This document shows positions 8,870 to 24,630 of a DNA stretch of 24,630 bases, piece after piece. The stretch lies in the IMG/VR virus record IMGVR_UViG_2923318301_000004, one strand, 5' to 3'. Numbering within the stretch: position 1 is the stretch's first letter; every line of letters begins with the position of its first letter. The stretch comes from a virus (Duplodnaviria > Heunggongvirae > Uroviricota > Caudoviricetes). The notes below the pieces were generated by a model that saw nothing but the letters and a program-made list of their open reading frames with translations, did no database searches and was not told the DNA's origin. The position numbers and the translations under genes are program-made.

Positions 8870-9540
8870 GTGTGCCCGGAGTTCAGGGCGGGCATGGATG
8901 CTTAAATGAACCGCGAGTCTGTCTGGAATATTGAGCCGGTAACTCACGATGAGAAACCCAACAATCCCACCGGGTGTGACGGTGGAGAACCTGAGCGGCA
9001 GTGACCTGCGGCATGCCCGCAGGGTGATGTAACCCGCTGACAACGGGGATTGAGGCGAGATCACTAAGCCGAGATGATCCTCAAGGTTAAGTACTGAAAG
9101 GCTGAAGAACATGAACCCGTTAATCCGCCTCTGTGGGTTGAAAACGTCACCACGGCCTACGTGATCTGACAGGCCGTGCAGGAGGAACTGGCAGTGATAC
9201 GTAAGCACTGCCGGTCGAAGGTGTTTTGACATGTATGCGAAACACCGGGGCAGCAGCGTCTATCACGCTTGCGTTGCTGACTTCTGCCAACTTGCGGCAA
9301 GCAAGGATAAAGAGTGCGACGGGCAGCCTCCTCAGTATGCCTGAGTCCAGGCAGGTAAACCGGGGAAGGTCAGCGACGGATGTTAAGGGGGCATGGCTCC
9401 GATGACGCGCTGGCTGGCGGAGCTTCCGTAGTAGTCCGCGATGGGGAAAGCCCATTACATGGCGAAGGGAAGCAGTTTGAATGTGTTTGCGACGTGAATT
9501 AACTGACCTAACGAGGTGAAGACCTTTGATAATCAGCGAA

Positions 9541-11049
9541 ATGCAACGCAAGCTTGCCACATGGGCAGTCACCGATCCGTCCCTACGGATTCAACGGCTG
9601 CTGCGTCTGATAACACAACCAGAATGGCTGGCTGAAGCGGCGCGGATCACGCTTTCATCAAAGGGGGCCCATACCCCCGGCGTTGATGGCGTGAACAAAA
9701 CAATGCTACAGGCCAGACTGGCTGTTGAGCTGCAAATCCTCAGGGATGAATTACTCTCAGGCCACTACCAGCCCTTGCCCGCCAGACGGGTTTACATCCC
9801 TAAAAGCAACGGCAAACTGCGACCACTGGGTATCCCCGCGTTGCGGGATCGTATTGTTCAGCGGGCCATGCTGATGGCGATGGAGCCGATATGGGAGAGT
9901 GATTTTCATACGCTCTCATATGGCTTCCGGCCTGAGCGCAGTGTCCACCACGCGATCCGCACGGTGAAATTACAGCTCACAGACTGTGGTGAAACCCGGG
10001 GACGCTGGGTGATTGAAGGCGACCTGTCCAGTTACTTCGACACCGTACATCATCGACTGCTGATGAAGGCTGTACGCCGCAGGATCAGTGACGCACGTTT
10101 CATGACTCTGCTGTGGAAAACCATCAAGGCGGGACATATCGATGTCGGTCTCTTTCGGGCGGCCAGTGAAGGTGTGCCACAGGGCGGTGTTATATCGCCG
10201 CTATTATCGAACATCATGCTGAATGAGTTCGATCAATACCTGCATGAGCGCTACCTGAGCGGGAAAGCCAGAAAAGATCGGTGGTACTGGAATAACAGTA
10301 TCCAACGGGGCCGAAGTACGGCGGTCAGAGAAAACTGGCAGTGGAAACCCGCGGTGGCGTACTGCCGCTATGCCGATGATTTTGTCCTCATCGTCAAAGG
10401 CACCAAAGCACAGGCGGAAGCCATCAGGGAGGAGTGTCGGGGTGTGCTCGAAGGCAGTCTGAAACTCAGGCTGAACATGGATAAGACTAAAATCACCCAT
10501 GTTAATGACGGCTTTATCTTTCTGGGGCACAGGATCATTCGCAAACGCAGTCGTTATGGCGAGATGCGAGTGGTCTCAACGATCCCGCAGGAGAAAGCCA
10601 GAAACTTCGCCGCATCGCTGACAGCACTGTTATCAGGCAACTACAGTGAAAGCAAAGTCGATATGGCTGAACAACTCAACCGAAAACTGAAAGGCTGGGC
10701 CATGTTCTATCAGTTCGTTGATTTTAAGGCCAAAGTCTTCAGTTATATCGACCGTGTCGTGTTCTGGAAGCTGGCTCACTGGCTGGCCCGCAAATACCGT
10801 ACAGGTATCGCTTCCCTGATGAGGTGGTGGTGTAAATCACCGAAACCGGGTCAGAGCAAAACGTGGGTTTTATTTGGTAAAACCAATCACGGCAAGCTCA
10901 GCGGCGAAATACTGTACCGGTTGGTGGGGCAAGGCAAGAAGCTGTTCCGCTGGCGGCTACCCGAAGGTAATCCCTATCTGAGGACGGAGACCAGAAACAC
11001 GTATACATCGCGCTTTACAGAAGTGGCAATGGCGTTCGCCAGCATTTAA
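9541..11049 (+). CDS. Group II intron-encoded protein (reverse transcriptase/maturase)
   Basis: RT motifs in order (RPLGIPALRDRIVQ; SYGFRPERS; YCRYADDFVLIV) followed by a maturase (X) domain; start assigned to the first ATG (MQRKLATW...) rather than the TTG at 9526 used by the ORF track. Confidence 0.85.
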   Translation: MQRKLATWAVTDPSLRIQRLLRLITQPEWLAEAARITLSSKGAHTPGVDGVNKTMLQARLAVELQILRDELLSGHYQPLPARRVYIPKSNGKLRPLGIPALRDRIVQRAMLMAMEPIWESDFHTLSYGFRPERSVHHAIRTVKLQLTDCGETRGRWVIEGDLSSYFDTVHHRLLMKAVRRRISDARFMTLLWKTIKAGHIDVGLFRAASEGVPQGGVISPLLSNIMLNEFDQYLHERYLSGKARKDRWYWNNSIQRGRSTAVRENWQWKPAVAYCRYADDFVLIVKGTKAQAEAIREECRGVLEGSLKLRLNMDKTKITHVNDGFIFLGHRIIRKRSRYGEMRVVSTIPQEKARNFAASLTALLSGNYSESKVDMAEQLNRKLKGWAMFYQFVDFKAKVFSYIDRVVFWKLAHWLARKYRTGIASLMRWWCKSPKPGQSKTWVLFGKTNHGKLSGEILYRLVGQGKKLFRWRLPEGNPYLRTETRNTYTSRFTEVAMAFASI

Positions 11050-11053
11050 ATGG

Positions 11054-11087
11054 AGAGCCGGATGCGCTGAAAGGTGCACGTCCGGTT
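11054..11087 (+). ncRNA. Group II intron domain V (catalytic hairpin)
   Basis: GAGCCGGATGCGCTGAAAGGTGCACGTCCGGTTC: about 34 nt, AGC triad near the 5' end, 2-nt bulge, GAAA tetraloop, immediately after the IEP stop codon and about 50 nt from the intron 3' end. Confidence 0.65.
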
Positions 11088-11111
11088 CGGGGAGGAGAGG
11101 CAGGGAAATAG

Positions 11112-11612
<501 letters not shown>

Positions 11613-11654
11613 GTTCACAGATAAAACACTCTCCAGGAAACCCGGGGCGGTTCA

Positions 11655-12792
11655 CTCATCTGCCGCTCTACCGCATCCCTCGACCATAATCCCGACTCAA
11701 TCAACGAACTACAAGCCATCGTCCTGAAGCCATGCCCACAAACCTCGACCTTCGTGTCATACCCCATTACGCGCAAAGCCTTGTTCACCGTATTCTCACT
11801 CATCGGCTTACGTGGATCGTGATCGCCCACAAAAATCAGCTCTCAATTTCCGCTCATGCTTTTGATCTTTTCCAAAATACTTAGGGCCTGCCGCGACAAA
11901 GGTACAAGGTGTGGTGTCCGCATCTTCGAGCCACGCTGAGAATGCTTGACTCCTTCCAGTTGCTCACGCTCACCTGGGATTGTCCACATAGCCGTTTCAA
12001 AATCTACTTCTGACCAGCGGGCAAAATGCAGCTCGCTCGAACGGATGAAAACCAATAAAGTGAGTTCAACCGCCAGCCGAGTTAACGGTCTGCCAGAATA
12101 GTGATCTATGCGATGAAGTAATTCAGGTATACGGTTCAGTTCAAGAGCTGCACGGTGCTGTCTTTTCGCCGTAGCAACCGCACCTGCAATCTCTTGCGCG
12201 GGGTTGTAGTCGATTAAGCCGCTCTGAACGGCAAAGCGCATAATCGCGGTAGTACGCTGCTGTAAACGGGCGGCAACTTCGAGCCGCCCGGATGACTCGA
12301 CTGCTTTAATGGGTACAAGAAGATCCCGCGTCTTCAGTTCCGCAATGTTCCGCTTACCGATAGCAGTAAAGAGATTATCCTCCAGACTTTTCAAAACACG
12401 AGCGCTATGCGATGCCGACCACTTCTGATTGCTGGCGTGCCAGTCTCTGGCGACTACTTCAACGTTATCGCCTCTTGTTCCTGTTCTACCTTAACAGCTT
12501 TCTTGTTTTCACTGGGATCGACACCATTAGCTAAAAGCTTACGAGCCTCATCCCGGCGTGCCCTGGCATCCGCCAACGACACTTCGGGGTATTTCCCCAA
12601 TGCCAGCATCTTCTCTTTACCGCCAAAGCGATAACGTAGCCGCCAGTATTTGGAGCCGTTAGGGTGAACCAGCAAAACCATGCCTTCACCGTCGGTCAGC
12701 TTATAGGCTTTTGCTTCAGGCTTAGCCGAACGAACCTTCACATCACTCAGAGCCATGATGAGTATCCTTTCAAGGGTTCTGTGTGGGTACAA
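11655..12792 (-). pseudogene. P4-type tyrosine integrase pseudogene (frameshifted, C-terminus removed by IS629)
   Basis: Three consecutive minus-strand ORF pieces (12454-12792 N-terminus MALSDVKVRSAKPEAKAYKLTDGEGMVLLVHPNGSKYWRLRYRF...; 11843-12394; 11615-11830) together cover a P4-like integrase but in different frames; the last piece abuts the IS629 end. Confidence 0.8.
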
Positions 12793-12976: not shown

Positions 12977-13210
12977 TAACTATATAACTCATTGAACATG
13001 ATGATAAAAATTTTATAGCTTATGACTTGTGCCCCATTTTGTGCCCCCAACAAAATCTTATTGTTGCTAACTAGCACAATAAATGAATTAGCAAGATAGA
13101 GTTGCCTAGTTAGGTTCCGTCTTACAGAGCCTAACCAGAACAACCAAACCTCTGAACCAACCTTGCGCAAGCTAGATAAAGTCATGCTGATTTATTAGGA
13201 CAACAAGCTA

Positions 13211-14143
13211 TTAAATTTCATATTTTGAAATTTCGCTGATTACATCATCCCCATATTTCTTAATCATGGAGGCAAAGAATTTATGTTCAATAAATTTCGC
13301 ATAGCCTAATTCTCCTTTAAGGGTTAGAATTTCTTTCTCAGATAAAACCCCACACACATAATAATGTATTTTACTTCTTAAAAGACGCTTTCTATCACGA
13401 CCTAAAGACAAATAACCATCAGTCGTAATAGTTACACCAGTTACATGTCTATTAAACTTCCTTGAGGTAAAAACTGTTTTCTCATGGTTTATTTTAATAT
13501 TCCTAAGATTTACTACGTTAAGAACTTCCCTTACTAACTTAGGAACATCAAATAAAGCTCCTTTGACTTTGGTGCTAAACGTAAGATCATCAGCATACCT
13601 TGAGTAGGTAATACCCAAATCCTTGCATCTTTTCGATATTTCCTCATCGAAGAAATACATTACTGTATTTGAAATAATGGGAGAAGAAGGTGCTCCAACA
13701 CTTAGGCGTAACGGGCTATTTCTTCTTAACTTCCAGAAGAAAAGATTTTTAAGAACAAAGATATCAGTATCAGTTAGTTCAACGCCATAATCTTTTAAGA
13801 CAGATAAAAGATTATGGGGTTTGATACTCATAAAAAAGTTTTTAAAATCCATTTTAAGCAAATAATCATTATTACAATGCATTAACGCATTAGATCTAAT
13901 ACTTTTATCGGCTTCATAAGCGAAAGCATTTTCATGAACTTTCAAATTAGCCAACATATGATTGATTACTACCTTCTGTAAGGCTTTAACTTGCCTAGCT
14001 GGTTGTGCAATTAATCTATATCCATTACCATTTCTTTTGGCGATAGGATAAATTTTATATCTGCGTGGAATAGTAACAATATACCTTTTAGCCTCTTCTT
14101 CGCTAAGAAAAAGACCTTTTGAAATATAACTTAGCAACTCCAT
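13211..14143 (-). CDS. Retron-type reverse transcriptase
   Basis: About 310 aa, RT domain only (no maturase or endonuclease); motifs SNALMH (NAxxH), FKNFF, VGAPSSP, YSRYADDLTFS (YADD) and NRHVTGVTI (retron VTG); start ATG lies 1 nt after the upstream effector stop (TAGaATG); collinear with Ec86 RT as I recall it. Confidence 0.85.
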   Translation of the reverse strand: MELLSYISKGLFLSEEEAKRYIVTIPRRYKIYPIAKRNGNGYRLIAQPARQVKALQKVVINHMLANLKVHENAFAYEADKSIRSNALMHCNNDYLLKMDFKNFFMSIKPHNLLSVLKDYGVELTDTDIFVLKNLFFWKLRRNSPLRLSVGAPSSPIISNTVMYFFDEEISKRCKDLGITYSRYADDLTFSTKVKGALFDVPKLVREVLNVVNLRNIKINHEKTVFTSRKFNRHVTGVTITTDGYLSLGRDRKRLLRSKIHYYVCGVLSEKEILTLKGELGYAKFIEHKFFASMIKKYGDDVISEISKYEI

Positions 14144-14144
14144 T

Positions 14145-15131
14145 CTAAGCCCCTCCACGCACGATATTGATTTGATTTAGAGCATTTTTCCTTTTTTTTG
14201 CAGTCTCGTCCATATCTTTAGCATCCATACTTAAGTAAGATTGTCGGATTGCAACCTTAATATTCATAGAATCCTTTATTTTACCACTAGCACTGATACC
14301 AAATTTAAGTTTACTCTCTCTATGCCCTCGGGAATAGAAGTAGTCTGTACCACTGTAAGATAATGATGAGGTTAATTTCATCTTTTCAAGCAAATAAAGT
14401 AAACGAGTTATTATTTTTTGTGGCACATCTATATCCATACAGTATAGTGCCCACTCTATTTCGCTTTTCTTGATTGGTTCTGATAAAAGGATTATTTCGT
14501 AAATCAATATAGCTAGGTGCCCAGTATTTTCAGGGTTATATCGCTCCGTTTTTTTTACACGTTTTAATCTAGAATGAATATCATGGTAGATAAGCTCAAC
14601 CTCATCATATTTCATACGATCCGATTTTGGCCATGGATAAACTGATACTGAGGCCTCATCTATTTTTTTAAGATACTCCAAAGGGCCTAAATATATAAAA
14701 GAAGATCTAGCAGGAATATTTTTTCGTTCATTTCCCTCAATCTCCTCAAATGGTGCGACTACATGCAATTTTTGAGCTAGAGACTTCCTATTAACAAATA
14801 ATCCAAGCTCAACTAACGAACCTGCACTTTCTAAACAGATAACAACTAATGTTGAAATATTTGCAATATCATCTTCAAAGCTCATTAGATCTGAATATGC
14901 CCCCTCTCTGAAGTAGTCATGGAAGTTCTCAGCTAAAATAAGAGAATCTGACAATTCAGGTTTGTGGCCTGCTACATAAGTAAATATGTGGTCTCGTACA
15001 CTCATTGGAGTGGAATTTATCGGCCCACCACAAACAAAAATAATAGGAGGCATGAACTGAACAGTGAAATTTGAATATTTCAAATCTCCAAACTGCTCTT
15101 GTAATGCATTCATATATGCAGAATCACTCAC
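14145..15131 (-). CDS. Retron effector, putative nucleoside 2-deoxyribosyltransferase-like (NDT) domain plus C-terminal putative DNA-binding domain
   Basis: 328-aa ORF between the structured non-coding region and the RT; N-terminal region PPIIFVCGGPI...ICLESAGSLVELGLF resembles the Rossmann-like NDT fold with a candidate catalytic Glu; likely GTG start at 15131 with AGGGGGT as RBS (alternative ATG at 15113). AT-rich codon usage like the RT. Confidence 0.6.
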   Translation of the reverse strand: MSDSAYMNALQEQFGDLKYSNFTVQFMPPIIFVCGGPINSTPMSVRDHIFTYVAGHKPELSDSLILAENFHDYFREGAYSDLMSFEDDIANISTLVVICLESAGSLVELGLFVNRKSLAQKLHVVAPFEEIEGNERKNIPARSSFIYLGPLEYLKKIDEASVSVYPWPKSDRMKYDEVELIYHDIHSRLKRVKKTERYNPENTGHLAILIYEIILLSEPIKKSEIEWALYCMDIDVPQKIITRLLYLLEKMKLTSSLSYSGTDYFYSRGHRESKLKFGISASGKIKDSMNIKVAIRQSYLSMDAKDMDETAKKRKNALNQINIVRGGA

Positions 15132-17506: not shown

Positions 17507-17694
17507 GGTGGAACAGGTGAAACATGTGTTACAGCTTTGTTTTATAAGGCATTTATATACACTGCACCGGTGGAACATCGCGGGTAACAAGGTGGAACAG
17601 CGGATTGGCTGGCGTTACATCTGTTCCACCTCACTATTTCAGAAGGTGGAACAGGTTCAGCCCTGTAAAATACGGTTGTTCCACCTGTTTCACC
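17507..17694. repeat. Iteron cluster: 8 copies of TGTTCCACC / GGTGGAACA (two are TGTTTCACC variants) in both orientations
   Basis: Copies at 17507, 17516, 17569, 17591, 17622, 17646, 17677, 17686; in the non-coding gap between the alpha-like primase gene and sid; closely resembles the TGTTCACC octamers of P4 ori/crr that are bound by alpha. Confidence 0.6.
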
Positions 17695-21453: not shown

Positions 21454-21622
21454 GTTCACCTCCGCAGGGAATGCGCCCGGCAAAGCTCAGTACATAGTCC
21501 GGGGCAAGTCTGCGCCGCGCTGACCGCTCGTTATCTGCGGTGATCCTTAACATCACAGGACGGGCATTGCGTTGACTGCGGTTGATCGCCGCAAATAACC
21601 AGGTACACTTCTGTTTAGCCAT
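21446..21622 (-). CDS. Hypothetical small protein (58 aa), first gene of the alpha operon
   Basis: ATG at 21622 preceded by GAGGTAACGAAG; this frame is the 3' part of a longer 244-aa ORF on the track that I consider spurious upstream of this start. Confidence 0.4.
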   Translation of the reverse strand: MAKQKCTWLFAAINRSQRNARPVMLRITADNERSARRRLAPDYVLSFAGRIPCGGEHA

Positions 21623-21695
21623 CTTCGTTACCTCATTTAGCGGATTGGTCAGAAGCCCGGTTAGTGTTGCTGCACTGTCGGGCTTCGCACTCACA

Positions 21696-21793
21696 AGGTG
21701 AATCGCACCTTTAATTTTAAAGCTACCCTTAAGTGAATCGCACTTCAAGCTTTTTATTATCATTTTTTTTGCATATACTGAATCGCACCTAAC
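21696..21793. promoter_or_regulatory. Divergent promoter region with three copies of the near-palindromic motif (G)TGAATCGCAC(C)
   Basis: TGAATCGCAC at 21699, 21734 and 21779; the third copy sits between a TATACT -10-like hexamer (21774-21779) and the RBS of the plus-strand small gene. Confidence 0.45.
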
Positions 21794-22091: not shown

Positions 22092-22322
22092 TTAGTGATT
22101 TTCATATCGCTCACCACGAGAGGCATATATTTGCTCTTGAATCCAGTGATCCACTTCGCTTTCAACAAATGAAATTGCACGAGTTCCTATTTTCACCGGA
22201 CGGGGAAATGTATTGTTTGCAAGCTGTTTGTAAAGCCATGCCTTGCTACGCTGAACGCGTCTTAAGACCTCTTTTGCTGAGATAAGAGTCTGATTATCTG
22301 AAAAGCTGTTTGCATATTCCAT
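22092..22322 (-). CDS. alpA: AlpA/Vis-family phage regulatory protein (excisionase-like winged HTH)
   Basis: MEYANSFSDNQTLISAKEVLRRVQRSKAWLYKQLANNTFPRPVKIGTRAISFVESEVDHWIQEQ matches the AlpA/P4 Vis pattern; start placed at ATG 22322 (GGAGT RBS 8 nt upstream) rather than the track's 22367. Confidence 0.7.
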   Translation of the reverse strand: MEYANSFSDNQTLISAKEVLRRVQRSKAWLYKQLANNTFPRPVKIGTRAISFVESEVDHWIQEQIYASRGERYENH

Positions 22323-22699
22323 CTTGTTACTCCGTGTTCTACTTAAGTTCACGGTGACTTTAAACACTGGGAAAAAGTGATTCTAGTGATAATGGAATCT
22401 ATTAAGACAAATATTGATTCTATTGAAAAACAATAATCTCCACTGAAAAAAGAAGTAATATTCATATGAAAGAACACGGAGAGAAGGAAATGCACAAAAA
22501 AAAACAAAATCAATAGAATTCATATGGATAGGATGGAAAATCAAAAAATCATATGTCAAAAGGTATTATTGCATTTTAACGATTCATATTACCTAGGAAT
22601 TAGCACAGTATTACACCATATTACATCGTATTACCCCCTATAGCCCGTTAGAGCCTCTTGTGGCCCTTCTATTGAGAGATAGCCAGAAAATTAATAAAT

Positions 22700-23338
22700 T
22701 TACTCTCCGTATTTTATAATGTCTTTCCCAAGCTTTATTTTCTTATAAAACGTAGCTTTTTTAACCCCTTTCATTAGAATCTCATTCTCATTACAAAAAG
22801 AAACAATATCATTATATATAACACTATTATCGCTATAACTTACCTTTCCATGTCTCTTAAGCAATTCAATTAGTAAATAAATTAATTTACAACTATAATT
22901 ATCCTCATCATCTTTTCTGTACTGCCCTCTACCATTACTCCTTAATTTTTTACCAACTTCATATAATTCACTTCCTCCTAACGTCATTAGAATATCACTC
23001 CAATCTTTATTTTTTACCTGTTGTCGTAATGCGTTCTCAATTCTCTCCTTAATCTCCACAGGTACAATACCTTCCCTCTGAAAGATATAAGCGGCAGTTA
23101 ATAATAAGTTCGCCTCCACTTTTTGCGTGGCGGATACGTTTTTATATTCATTAATTAATTGTAGATTTCTGGTTATTGCCTTTCTTAATCTAATAACCTC
23201 TTTTAATTGAACCTCAGTCAATTCATCATTTTCGGTATCATAGTCAAAACCATTCATAGCAAGCGCCACTTCGTGTGGCGTTATGTAAGTTAACCTATTA
23301 AAATAAAACAAATTATTATCAAATTGAGTATTATTCAT
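22700..23338 (-). CDS. Hypothetical protein, AT-rich orphan gene between int and alpA
   Basis: 212-aa ORF with markedly AT-rich, Lys/Asn/Ile/Tyr-rich composition unlike the flanking integrase and P4 core genes; no family recognised. Confidence 0.6.
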   Translation of the reverse strand: MNNTQFDNNLFYFNRLTYITPHEVALAMNGFDYDTENDELTEVQLKEVIRLRKAITRNLQLINEYKNVSATQKVEANLLLTAAYIFQREGIVPVEIKERIENALRQQVKNKDWSDILMTLGGSELYEVGKKLRSNGRGQYRKDDEDNYSCKLIYLLIELLKRHGKVSYSDNSVIYNDIVSFCNENEILMKGVKKATFYKKIKLGKDIIKYGE

Positions 23339-23367
23339 TTAAATCTCTCCGCAGCCCCCAATGGTAA

Positions 23368-24630
23368 TTATTTTCCATGCATACGCGCAAAATCATATGG
23401 TGTGACAGATCCATTCTTATTAGCATCAATATAATCAGCCCACCACTGCAGCATTAATCTTCTTTCTTCAAGATATTCGGAAGTATGCATATATGAACCT
23501 TTCACATTTTTTCGTTCAACGTGGCTTAACTGTCTTTCAATGGCATCATCATTCCATAGTTTCGACTCACTTAGCGCACCACGCGCCATAGTTCTAAACC
23601 CATGACCACATACTTCAGTTTTCGTATCATATCCCATTACACGTAAGGCGTTATTTACTGTATTTTCACTCATTACTTTTTTAGGATCATGATCGCTGGG
23701 AAATATAACCTCACCTTTACCACTCAAGGCATGTAAACGTTTAAAAATATCAAATGCTTGTTTGCTAAGCGGAACAATATGTTCAGTTTTCATCTTCATC
23801 CCACGCTCAGAGTGTTTTACGCCGGGAATAGGCTTACGAATTCCGGGTATTGTCCACTCGCTTCGTTCAAAGTTAACCTCACTCCAGCGAGCAAAACGCA
23901 TCTCACTTGAACGTATAAATGTGAGTAGCGTTAATTCAACGGCAAGCCGTGTCATTAGTCGCCCTTTATAGCGTGATAGTCTTTCAAGAAGCTCAGGGAT
24001 TCTTTTTGGGGGTAGTGCTGGGTGGTGGGTTGCTTTAACGCTTAAAAGCGCTCCAGCCATATCGCATGCAGGATTTGATTCAAGGAGGTCATTCTGCACA
24101 CCAAAACGCATAATTGCGGTTACGCGCTGCATCAGTCGCTGCGCGACATCATGTTTACCCGCCGTATCGACAGCTTTGATTGGATTGAGAAGCTGGCTGG
24201 TTCTCAACGTTCTGGCATCGATTTGACCTATCGAGGGGAAAATATACTGCTCAAGTGTCAGCAGAACACGACGGCTATGATCTTCGCTCCAAGTAAGGTT
24301 ACTTGCGTGCCATTGCCTTGCGATAGTTTCAAATAAATATGCCCCCTCAATTTCAGCTTGTGCCCCCTTTTGCTCAGCTTTGGGGTCAATACCCTGAGAC
24401 AACAATTTCTTTGCTGCATCGCGCTTACCCCGCGCTTCAGCCAAAGTGACCGTCGGGTATACACCAAAAGCGAGTCGATCTTCCTTTTTGTCAGAGGGGC
24501 GGCGATATTTCATGCGCCAGTACTTAGAACCTTTAGGGGAGACCTCAAGATACAAACCGCCTCCATCAGCCATTTTATAAGCTTTCTCTTTCGGCTTTGC
24601 GGTCTCTATCTGGCGAGCGTTGAGTTTCAT
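23368..24630 (-). CDS. int: P4-type tyrosine integrase (intact, 420 aa); start codon at the window edge
   Basis: N-terminal AKPKEKAYKMADGGGLYLEVSPKGSKYWRMKYR... and C-terminal catalytic region (HGFRTMARGAL...; ...YMHTSEYLEERR) typical of the P4/IntA family. Confidence 0.9.
   Translation of the reverse strand: MKLNARQIETAKPKEKAYKMADGGGLYLEVSPKGSKYWRMKYRRPSDKKEDRLAFGVYPTVTLAEARGKRDAAKKLLSQGIDPKAEQKGAQAEIEGAYLFETIARQWHASNLTWSEDHSRRVLLTLEQYIFPSIGQIDARTLRTSQLLNPIKAVDTAGKHDVAQRLMQRVTAIMRFGVQNDLLESNPACDMAGALLSVKATHHPALPPKRIPELLERLSRYKGRLMTRLAVELTLLTFIRSSEMRFARWSEVNFERSEWTIPGIRKPIPGVKHSERGMKMKTEHIVPLSKQAFDIFKRLHALSGKGEVIFPSDHDPKKVMSENTVNNALRVMGYDTKTEVCGHGFRTMARGALSESKLWNDDAIERQLSHVERKNVKGSYMHTSEYLEERRLMLQWWADYIDANKNGSVTPYDFARMHGK

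What the first reader, a model, noticed from the sequence alone, without database searches (positions are those of the whole stretch)
22368..23367. AT-rich orphan gene next to the integrase: a second accessory slot?
The 212-aa ORF (22700-23338) and the 330-bp region downstream of it are much more AT-rich than the integrase and P4 core genes, which suggests separate acquisition. The downstream region contains three TCATATG direct repeats (about 22465, 22522, 22551) and three tandem TATTACA/TATTACC units (22608-22636). The protein has no motif I recognise; its place between int and alpA makes it a candidate accessory (defence, anti-defence or abortive-infection) gene.
Basis: inference. Interest (0 to 1): 0.5.

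Follow-up and report, generated by a model that had tools for sequence, protein, structure and literature searches.

The report
Integrase-coupled unknown gene with alpA-promoter repeats
The AT-rich gene between the integrase and alpA of this E. coli phage satellite is a real, conserved gene of unknown fold; it always travels with four conserved DNA boxes in front of the satellite's master activator gene, so it is more likely a regulator of satellite induction than recently acquired defence cargo.

Summary
A 212-aa ORF (22700-23338, minus strand) and the non-coding stretch below it are about 31% G+C, against 45% for int and 54% for the satellite core. The TATTAC units are real and belong to a longer 10-bp-phased array. 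The TCATATG copies are at chance level and are not conserved.

The gene is under purifying selection (dN/dS about 0.15). It matches only phrog_30524. It has no Pfam, NCBIfam, PADLOC or PDB relative, although the AlphaFold model is confident (pLDDT 90.5).

It is not an orphan. Homologues at 24-100% identity sit directly after a P4-type integrase in P4-like satellites, a capsid-forming-PICI-like element and other viral contigs. Each is followed by a 275-590 bp AT-rich spacer holding 10-bp arrays and four TYRATRGAAT boxes in fixed register upstream of alpA.

Sibling satellites carry unrelated genes in the same slot (two unnamed families, DUF6387) and lack the boxes, even where the alpA allele is the same.

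My best reading (about 0.4) is that the protein binds the boxes and gates alpA. Defence cargo remains a live rival (about 0.25). Nothing has been tested experimentally.

The parts
23368..24630 (-). int: P4-type tyrosine integrase (420 aa). Its start codon is at the window edge, next to tRNA-Leu in the identical E. coli record.
   Evidence: Pfam Arm-DNA-bind_3, Phage_int_M and Phage_integrase. Annotated context in NZ_AP019189. The N-terminus is near-identical to P4 Int.
22700..23338 (-). The 212-aa gene ('X'): all-alpha protein of unknown function, member of phrog_30524, starting 29 nt after the int stop codon.
22587..22668 (.). 10-bp-phased array of about eight units. Plus strand: TATTACCTAG .. 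TATTACACCA TATTACATCG TATTACCCCC TATAGCCCGT TAGAGCCTCT TGTGGCCCTT.
   Evidence: 0.1% of local shuffles. Period-10 arrays at the same position in 9 of 11 representative homologous loci.
22447..22586 (.). AT-rich spacer. It holds the three TCATATG copies (22462, 22520, 22549) and one inverted exact copy of the box (TCAATAGAAT, 22510-22519, plus strand).
   Evidence: TCATATG is not significant locally and is not conserved.
22380..22446 (-). Four TYRATRGAAT boxes read on the minus strand: TCAGTGGAGA (22446-22437), TCAATAGAAT (22426-22417), TTAATAGATT (22405-22396), TCACTAGAAT (22389-22380). Spacing is 20, 21 and 16 bp. They lie 58-124 nt upstream of the alpA ATG.
   Evidence: (family D3). The boxes are in the same register in 8 of 9 aligned loci whose X proteins are 28-100% identical. 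They are present in all X loci and absent from non-X loci.
22336..22364 (-). Putative weak alpA promoter (inference only): TTTAAA, 17 nt, TAGAAC, immediately downstream of the boxes.
   Evidence: Read from the sequence. Not reported by the consensus scan. The TTTA[AC]A hexamer is kept in L009.
22092..22322 (-). alpA: AlpA/Vis-family regulator (76 aa), the first gene downstream of the spacer.
   Evidence: PF05930, E 1e-11. Annotated at these bounds in RefSeq.

Best explanation
The 212-aa gene and the 377-bp spacer below it form one cassette within the integration/regulation zone of an AlpA-type phage satellite.

Proposed mechanism:
- The protein is made together with Int, from the int transcript. 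This is inferred from a 29-nt gap here and 4-nt or 1-nt overlaps in distant homologues.
- It binds the four conserved TYRATRGAAT boxes that sit just upstream of the weak alpA promoter.
- By doing so it sets whether AlpA, the satellite's activator and excision factor, is expressed. It therefore gates induction of the satellite by its helper phage.
- The 10-bp-phased array next to the gene is a second protein-binding array. It is analogous to the cox-box array upstream of P4 P_LL/vis.

What is shown: the gene is real and conserved; its position is fixed; the cis-repeats co-occur with it; the slot is replaceable.

What is inferred: DNA binding, the target, and the direction of regulation (repressor or activator).
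For: 1. The gene is under purifying selection: dN/dS 0.15-0.17 against the 91-93% alleles.

2. In every homologous locus examined the order is the same: a P4-type int, then X (gap -4 to +46 nt), then a 275-590 bp AT-rich spacer, then alpA. These loci have 24-100% protein identity and cover more than 11 distinct lineages. They include DUF927-primase P4-like satellites from Hafnia and Pantoea, a P4-alpha-type element and the cf-PICI-like phage record LR881103.

3. The four boxes keep sequence, spacing and distance to the alpA ATG while X falls to 28% identity. The degenerate motif is expected about 0.02 times per spacer by my own rough estimate, yet it occurs 1-3 times in tandem in every X locus.

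4. The boxes and arrays follow X, not alpA or the core. L017 and L018 carry the same alpA allele as L015 (93% nt) but have DUF6387 in the slot, a spacer of about 95 bp and no boxes. L002 and L003 share the 98-100% identical core but have other slot genes and no boxes. P4 and CP4-57 have none.

5. The same int (97% aa) is joined to a 65%-identical X allele, with a sharp identity break at the int stop codon. X, the spacer and alpA diverge together.

6. The most conserved protein segments are basic: GRGxYRKxDE at a helical hairpin and G-x2-K-[ST]-T-F-Y-x-K in the C-terminal helix. The latter is reminiscent of resolvase/Hin-type recognition helices. pI is 8.3.

7. Published work leaves room for such a factor. 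In Gram-negative PICIs AlpA is an auto-activated activator, its expression depends on the helper, and no repressor is known (PMC6092414).
Against: - No recognised DNA-binding domain was found. Pfam hits to HTH families among family members are sub-threshold and no more numerous than chance.
- A confident model has no significant match to any HTH protein or to anything else in the PDB.
- The boxes lie upstream of the presumed -35 hexamer. That suits an activator better than a simple repressor, and the promoter itself is only inferred.
- The box motif is almost invariant while X diverges to 24%. That would also fit a conserved host or helper protein as the binder.
- Sibling satellites function, presumably, with unrelated slot genes and no boxes. 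X is therefore not an indispensable core function.
- The co-occurrence counts are not phylogenetically independent.
Confidence: 0.4

Rival explanations
1. Accessory cargo in a second hotspot. The gene is a stand-alone defence, anti-defence, abortive-infection or interference factor expressed from the int transcript in the lysogen. The repeats belong to alpA regulation and are only linked to it by proximity.
For: - The slot holds at least four unrelated gene families in related satellites.
- The gene is as AT-rich as the retron hotspot.
- It evolves faster than int.
- The family is small and restricted to Enterobacterales: 41 representatives at 50% identity among 1.84 billion proteins.
- A small ORF at the same position in PICI EcCIMP1 was treated as a putative accessory gene (PMC11773190).
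- Satellites are known carriers of defence genes (PMC13586616).
Against: - No PADLOC hit for this protein or for any alternative slot protein.
- The gene keeps its position over very deep divergence (24-28% identity) in satellites of the same architecture. That is unlike the rapid turnover in the retron hotspot.
- It never occurs away from int and alpA in more than 40 loci.
- The box array co-varies in presence with the gene rather than with alpA.
- Overlap of the start codon with the int stop codon is unusual for moron-type cargo.
Confidence: 0.25
2. Integrase partner. The protein works with Int, as an integration/excision cofactor or as a regulator of Int level or directionality. The boxes are bound by something else (AlpA, a helper protein or a host protein).
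For: - The gene is always immediately 3' of int, often with ATGA or 1-nt overlaps that imply translational coupling.
- The unrelated slot genes (L002 ORF, DUF6387) also overlap the int stop codon.
- A TTGGGGGCTG sequence resembling the P4 Int arm-type site TGGGGGCAT lies between int and the gene.
Against: - A nearly identical Int (97% aa) is paired with alleles only 65% identical. The recombination break falls exactly at the junction, so no tight co-evolution with Int is seen.
- The protein has no match to the excisionase families HTH_17 or PF05930 at threshold.
Confidence: 0.13
3. Replication or plasmid-maintenance module. The spacer is an origin-like region, as in P4 where ori lies directly upstream of vis. 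The protein would be an origin-associated or copy-control factor.
For: - The P4 ori, with three tandem 10-bp 'type 2' repeats and type-1 iterons, lies directly upstream of the alpA homologue vis.
- The spacers of L026 and L015 contain P4 type-1-like iterons: TGTTCACC and TGTTCATC in 10-bp tandem.
- The layout of array, AT-rich stretch and boxes spaced about 21 bp apart resembles an iteron origin.
Against: - In this window the primase iterons (TGTTCCACC, eight copies) are found only downstream of the alpha gene at 17507-17694. None lies in the spacer.
- Siblings with a 99% identical primase lack both X and this spacer.
- There is no structural similarity to winged-helix Rep proteins.
- The P4 type-2 repeats match the cox-box consensus. 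That points to transcriptional activation by the helper rather than to replication (PMC3936717).
Confidence: 0.08
4. The boxes are nucleation sites for a conserved host nucleoid protein such as H-NS, which silences alpA. The gene is unrelated to them or acts as an anti-silencer.
For: - The region is 31% G+C in a roughly 50% G+C genome.
- Box variants such as TCGATAGATT (L029) resemble the published H-NS high-affinity motif TCGATAAATT. That motif is recalled from my own knowledge and was not looked up.
- The motif stays nearly invariant while X diverges.
Against: - A G is conserved in every box variant (..RGAAT).
- The fixed register and the palindromic third box (GGAATTCC or GATTCC) point to a sequence-specific dimeric factor.
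- Equally AT-rich slots without X lack the boxes.
Confidence: 0.06

Closest known systems
Stl/Rpr master repressors of Gram-positive PICIs (SaPIs)
   Same: A gene next to int, highly variable between otherwise related islands, controlling the promoter that starts the island's cycle. It is expressed in the integrated state. Accessory genes can also sit between int and the regulator (PMC6092414).
   Different: Stl is transcribed divergently from the operon it represses and has a recognisable HTH. This gene is co-directional with alpA and has no detectable HTH or structural relative. Its boxes lie upstream of the -35 hexamer rather than over the promoter. No helper-protein ligand is known.
P4 P_LL / vis control region with cox boxes (P4 'ori type 2 repeats')
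   Same: An array of direct repeats with 10-bp phasing lies upstream of the AlpA-family gene. In P4, the helper's Cox protein uses this array to switch on the satellite (PMC3936717).
   Different: The unit sequence here (TATTACA / TATAGCC) does not match the cox-box consensus TTAAA(G/C)NC(A/C). P4 has no homologue of the 212-aa gene and none of the TYRATRGAAT boxes. P4 int is not adjacent to vis.
Defence hotspots of P4-like satellites (between int and psu; minor ones near att)
   Same: A position between conserved core genes where unrelated AT-rich genes replace each other in sibling elements (PMC8628076; PMC13586616). The retron of this same element sits in such a hotspot.
   Different: This slot holds a single gene of unknown function, coupled to int. 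It keeps the same family across very deep divergence and has no match to any known defence protein. The int-alpA interval is not among the hotspots listed in those papers, as far as I read them.
DUF6387 (PF19924) proteins and EcCIMP1_002
   Same: They occupy the same slot between int and alpA in E. coli PICIs and in a Klebsiella genomic island. Their function is also unknown.
   Different: No sequence or profile similarity to the 212-aa family. The DUF6387 slots have a spacer of only about 95 bp, without boxes or arrays.

Membership tests
phrog_30524 (PHROGs, unknown function) | Full-length match to the family HMM | tested here: met
   E 9.6e-109, residues 1-212 on profile positions 1-220.
Known anti-phage defence proteins (PADLOC-DB 2.0) | Match to any defence-system HMM | tested here: not met
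   No hit at E up to 1 for the window protein, its 65% and 27% homologues, or the three alternative slot proteins. The neighbouring retron RT and NDT score 1e-121 and 2e-88 in the same search, so the library works on this element.
Known anti-phage defence proteins (PADLOC-DB 2.0) | Protection against phage when expressed | not testable with these tools
   Needs a phage-challenge experiment.
Satellite accessory/defence hotspot | Unrelated genes at the same position in elements with the same core | tested here: met
   L002, L003, L017 and L018 compared with the window and L015.
Satellite accessory/defence hotspot | Rapid turnover: no long-term retention of one family at the site | tested here: not met
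   The same family is retained at 24-93% identity in the same position across genera and satellite types.
Helix-turn-helix transcription regulators (including Stl-like repressors) | Recognisable DNA-binding domain by sequence or fold | tested here: inconclusive
Helix-turn-helix transcription regulators (including Stl-like repressors) | Cognate repeated operator sites next to the gene, co-inherited with it | tested here: met
   Four boxes in fixed register in all X loci, and none in six non-X loci.
Helix-turn-helix transcription regulators (including Stl-like repressors) | Demonstrated binding to those sites and an effect on transcription | not testable with these tools
   Needs EMSA or footprinting and reporter assays.
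AlpA/Vis/Xis excisionase family (PF05930, HTH_17) | Match to PF05930 or PF12728 | tested here: not met
   No hit for the window protein. One of 28 family members gave a sub-threshold PF05930 hit at E 0.024. The true alpA lies downstream at 22092-22322.
Iteron-binding replication initiator with origin | The element's primase/initiator iterons lie in the adjacent non-coding region | tested here: not met
   TGTTCCACC iterons lie only at 17507-17694. The feature is met in the distant loci L026 and L015.
Iteron-binding replication initiator with origin | Winged-helix Rep fold | tested here: not met

The most novel reading that the evidence does not exclude
The 212-aa family is the missing helper-sensing switch of Gram-negative AlpA-type satellites. 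It would be a new-fold, box-binding regulator made together with Int. It would hold the alpA promoter in check, or license it, until a helper-phage protein acts on it. That makes it the functional counterpart of SaPI Stl. The unrelated genes in the same slot (DUF6387 and the L002 and L003 families) would be alternative sensors tuned to other helpers.
Probability: 0.2. Interest if true: 0.75.

Novelty: new variant of a known kind. Interest (0 to 1): 0.5.

Why it matters
How helper phages switch on alpA in Gram-negative PICIs and P4-like hybrids was described as unresolved, and whether a satellite repressor exists was called 'unclear' (PMC6092414). Later papers I read describe the 'integration zone' simply as int plus alpA (PMC10111431).

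This work gives a concrete, testable candidate for that control step: a conserved gene coupled to int, which travels with a fixed four-box array at the alpA promoter and is replaced by unrelated genes in sibling satellites.

If it is instead cargo, it defines a second, single-gene variable slot in these satellites. That slot holds at least four uncharacterised families, one of them with a confidently predicted fold that has no PDB relative.

Either way the slot deserves a systematic census. The element is common in clinical E. coli: 204 of 5426 complete genomes.

Tried and rejected
- **Homology between slot proteins.** I thought by eye that the C-termini of the three slot proteins (window, L002, L003) were homologous. 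hhalign did not support it: E 0.12-0.54, probability below 1%. DUF6387 is also unrelated.
- **TCATATG repeats as a functional element.** Rejected: 14% of local shuffles do as well, and the copies are not conserved.
- **Boxes as Int arm-type sites.** Rejected: the P4 arm sites are TGGGGGCAT.
- **Boxes as AlpA autoregulatory sites.** Weakened: the same alpA allele occurs without them.
- **Spacer as the alpha-primase origin in this window.** Rejected: the iterons lie elsewhere.
- **Known RNA in the spacer.** None found. The only Rfam match is a sub-threshold symR-like hit outside it.
- **Consensus scans.** The sigma-70 and terminator scans gave no more sites than shuffles.
- **Similar DNA in the phage collection.** None by megablast.
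- **P4-type cos site.** Not found by similarity.
- **Pseudogene or chance ORF.** Rejected by dN/dS and by conservation.
- **Source names.** Every family member is named 'hypothetical protein' by its source.

Full report
**What the window is.** The right half of the window is a phage satellite in an E. coli chromosome. It is identical to NZ_AP019189 and integrated at tRNA-Leu. Reading the minus strand, the order is:
- int (24630-23368)
- the 212-aa ORF (23338-22700)
- a 377-bp spacer
- alpA (22322-22092)
- a YlcI/YnfO-like gene on the other strand
- an Icd-like gene and two hypothetical genes
- DUF5375 (the family of P4 ORF106)
- a Toprim+DUF927 primase (20401-17729)
- sid-like, psu and delta genes
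- a St85-family (type II-A) retron, comprising NDT effector and RT (15131-13211)

The left part therefore has the int-alpA-icd-primase layout described for Gram-negative PICIs (PMC10111431). It is joined to a P4-type capsid-hijack module.

**The observation.** The ORF, its position and the composition contrast are all as described. The ORF and the 332 bp below it are each 30.7% G+C. By comparison, int is 44.7%, the core 54% and the retron 33.6%.

The three TCATATG copies exist. However, 14% of local dinucleotide shuffles have some 7-mer present three times, and the copies are not conserved in close alleles.

The TATTACA/TATTACC units are significant: 0.1% of local shuffles show a comparable phased repeat. 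They are the middle of a run of about eight 10-bp units at 22587-22668.

**The gene is real, old and uncharacterised.** It matches phrog_30524 over its full length (E 1e-108, function unknown). It matches nothing in Pfam, NCBIfam, PADLOC or PDB sequences.

The family is small and confined to Enterobacterales:
- 23 clusters at 90% identity
- 41 representatives at 50% identity among 1.84 billion proteins
- every member is named 'hypothetical' by its source

dN/dS against the 91-93% alleles is 0.15-0.17, compared with 0.04 for int. It is therefore a protein-coding gene under purifying selection that evolves about four times faster than its neighbour.

The best-conserved segments are:
- an N-terminal TPxEVALAxxG motif
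- GRGxYRKxDE at the tip of a long helical hairpin
- a basic C-terminal helix, G-x2-K-[ST]-T-F-Y-x-K

**Comparative anatomy.** In E. coli, int, the ORF and alpA always occur together, in 204 of 5426 genomes.

About 130 further genomes carry a satellite whose icd-to-delta core is 98-100% identical. Similarity stops at window position 21662-21684, and a different ylcI-like/alpA/ORF/int block follows. These blocks use tRNA-Thr or tRNA-Arg integrases. Their ORFs between int and alpA are unrelated: 180 aa in L002 and 293 aa in L003 (hhalign).

Conversely, homologues of the 212-aa protein are found directly after a P4-type integrase in many other elements:
- 91-93% identity in Pseudocitrobacter (L006) and Enterobacter (L007)
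- 65% in Izhakiella, Klebsiella indica, an Enterobacteriaceae MAG and (frameshifted, 58-67% over two segments) Apirhabdus; degraded copies also lie next to broken int genes in two Symbiopectobacterium genomes
- 45% in a metagenomic satellite
- 31-35% in IMG/VR contigs
- 24-28% in Hafnia and Pantoea satellites with the same DUF5375/DUF927/sid/delta architecture
- 27% in LR881103, a 16.5-kb record with terminase, capsid and portal genes that resembles a capsid-forming PICI

The gap to the int stop codon ranges from -4 to +46 nt, and ATGA overlaps are common.

Izhakiella, K. indica and Apirhabdus have an integrase 97% identical to ours but an X allele only about 65% identical. Nucleotide identity falls from about 95% to about 62% exactly at the int stop codon. 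Synonymous sites in X are saturated while those in int are not. So int and X are separable modules. X, the spacer and alpA diverge together.

**The spacer is a conserved control region, not a 'downstream' region.** All X-family loci have a 275-590 bp spacer of 31-41% G+C. Two features recur.

First, period-10 tandem arrays begin a few tens of bases after the stop codon of X. In the close relatives and in Hafnia the unit has the flavour GGCTATAA or CTATAAGGGG. In L026 and L015 the arrays include TGTTCACC or TGTTCATC, the P4 type-1 iteron.

Second, four boxes with consensus TYRATRGAAT are spaced 20, 21 and 16 bp apart. The third is often palindromic (GGAATTCC or GATTCC). They lie 65-130 nt upstream of the alpA ATG. 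In an alignment of nine loci, eight keep the boxes in the same register, with X identity down to 28%.

In the window the boxes are at 22380-22446. An inverted exact copy lies at 22510-22519.

The boxes are absent from P4, CP4-57, L002 and L003. They are also absent from two PICIs (L017, L018) that share the alpA allele of L015 at 93% nucleotide identity. Those two carry DUF6387 in the slot and have a spacer of only about 95 bp. The repeats therefore follow the gene, not alpA and not the replication/hijack core.

The boxes are not Int arm-type sites, which in P4 read TGGGGGCAT. The primase iterons of this element (TGTTCCACC, eight copies) lie only downstream of the primase gene. Rfam finds no known RNA in the spacer.

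**Mechanism.** The simplest reading treats gene and spacer as one cassette. The protein is co-expressed with Int and binds the four boxes in front of a weak alpA promoter. I infer that promoter as TTTAAA-17-TAGAAC at 22336-22364. Binding would control the activator that starts the satellite cycle.

Published work fits this. In Gram-negative PICIs AlpA is an auto-activated activator, its expression requires a helper phage by an unknown route, and no repressor is known (PMC6092414).

The 10-bp array is architecturally like the cox-box array upstream of P4 P_LL/vis. In P4 the three 'ori type 2 repeats' (TGNCTTTAA) are the reverse complement of the cox-box consensus. They lie directly upstream of vis (PMC3936717). 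The unit sequence here is different.

Everything about binding and the direction of control is inferred. No DNA-binding domain could be demonstrated. I put this reading at about 0.4.

**Rivals.**
- **Cargo in a second variable slot (0.25).** For: at least four unrelated families occupy the slot, the gene is AT-rich and it evolves faster than int. Against: deep retention of one family, coupling to int, the co-travelling boxes, and the absence of any defence signature.
- **An Int cofactor (0.13).** This fits the translational coupling. It does not fit the recombination break at the int/X junction.
- **An origin or copy-control role (0.08).** This fits P4's ori-vis geometry and the iterons in L026 and L015. 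It does not fit this window's iteron location, or the siblings with the same primase that lack the cassette.
- **H-NS-type nucleation sites (0.06).** These would explain the invariance of the boxes. They would not explain the conserved G or the fixed register.

**Comparison with what is known, and novelty.** The closest functional analogue is SaPI Stl. The closest cis-architecture is P4 P_LL with its cox boxes. The closest evolutionary pattern is the satellite defence hotspot. The finding is a member of none of these by the tests listed.

The papers I could search describe hotspots between int and psu and near att (PMC8628076, PMC13586616). They describe an 'integration zone' of int plus alpA (PMC10111431). 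One small ORF at this position was treated as possible cargo (PMC11773190). I found no description of this family or of the box array.

I rate the finding a new variant of a known kind. It is an uncharacterised protein family with no PDB fold relative, sitting in a recognisable functional zone. Interest is moderate (0.5). It would be higher if the regulator reading is confirmed.

Noticed in passing
window 17507-17694: Eight copies of TGTTCCACC (two of them TGTTTCACC) in both orientations, directly downstream of the Toprim+DUF927 primase gene. This is a one-base variant of the P4 type-1 iteron TGTTCACC and is probably the ori/crr of this element. L015, L017 and L018 have equivalent TGTTCA[CT]C clusters after their primase genes.
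   Followed up: partly
window 21699-21789 (repeats start at 21699, 21734 and 21779): Three direct copies of (G)TGAATCGCAC in the divergent region between the Icd-like gene and the YlcI/YnfO-like gene. This may be an operator, or a seqA/B/C-like target of an RNA-based immunity system as in P4 and P1. A sub-threshold symR-like Rfam hit (E 0.078) lies just beside it at 21617-21689.
   Followed up: no
window 21662-21684: Recombination breakpoint shared by about 130 E. coli genomes. The core from icd to delta is 98-100% identical, but the whole ylcI/alpA/slot-gene/int block is swapped for ones that target tRNA-Thr or tRNA-Arg.
   Followed up: yes
window 13211-15131: St85-family (PADLOC type II-A) retron: NDT effector (14145-15131) and reverse transcriptase (13211-14158), 33.6% G+C. 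It sits in the variable region after delta. Siblings carry an AAA ATPase plus S8 peptidase, or a 398-aa hypothetical gene, at that position.
   Followed up: partly
window 23354-23360, 24340-24367 and 13042-13049 (minus strand): TGGGGGC(A) sequences resembling the P4 Int arm-type repeat TGGGGGCAT. One lies between the int stop codon and the 212-aa gene, and two lie inside the 5' part of int (as in P4). One lies just beyond the retron RT and may mark the P' arm and right end of the satellite.
   Followed up: no
L002 8580-8858 (E. coli MS1266 satellite): The 180-aa slot gene of this sibling appears to be truncated. About 85 further codons continue in another frame up to 8580. They read like the C-terminus of the L003-type slot protein, but the similarity is by eye only and is not statistically supported.
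   Followed up: partly
L015 7126-7340 (phage record LR881103): Very regular 10-bp tandem arrays between the X homologue and alpA: CATTCAACAG about four times, CACGTAACGA about four times, then TGTTCATCA about six times. This is a much cleaner version of the array in the window.
   Followed up: partly
window 9526-12756: Beyond the satellite lie a group II intron reverse transcriptase (ltrA), an IS3 fragment and a frameshifted second integrase (49-59% identical to the satellite int). The tRNA-Leu locus is therefore a composite of several mobile elements.
   Followed up: no
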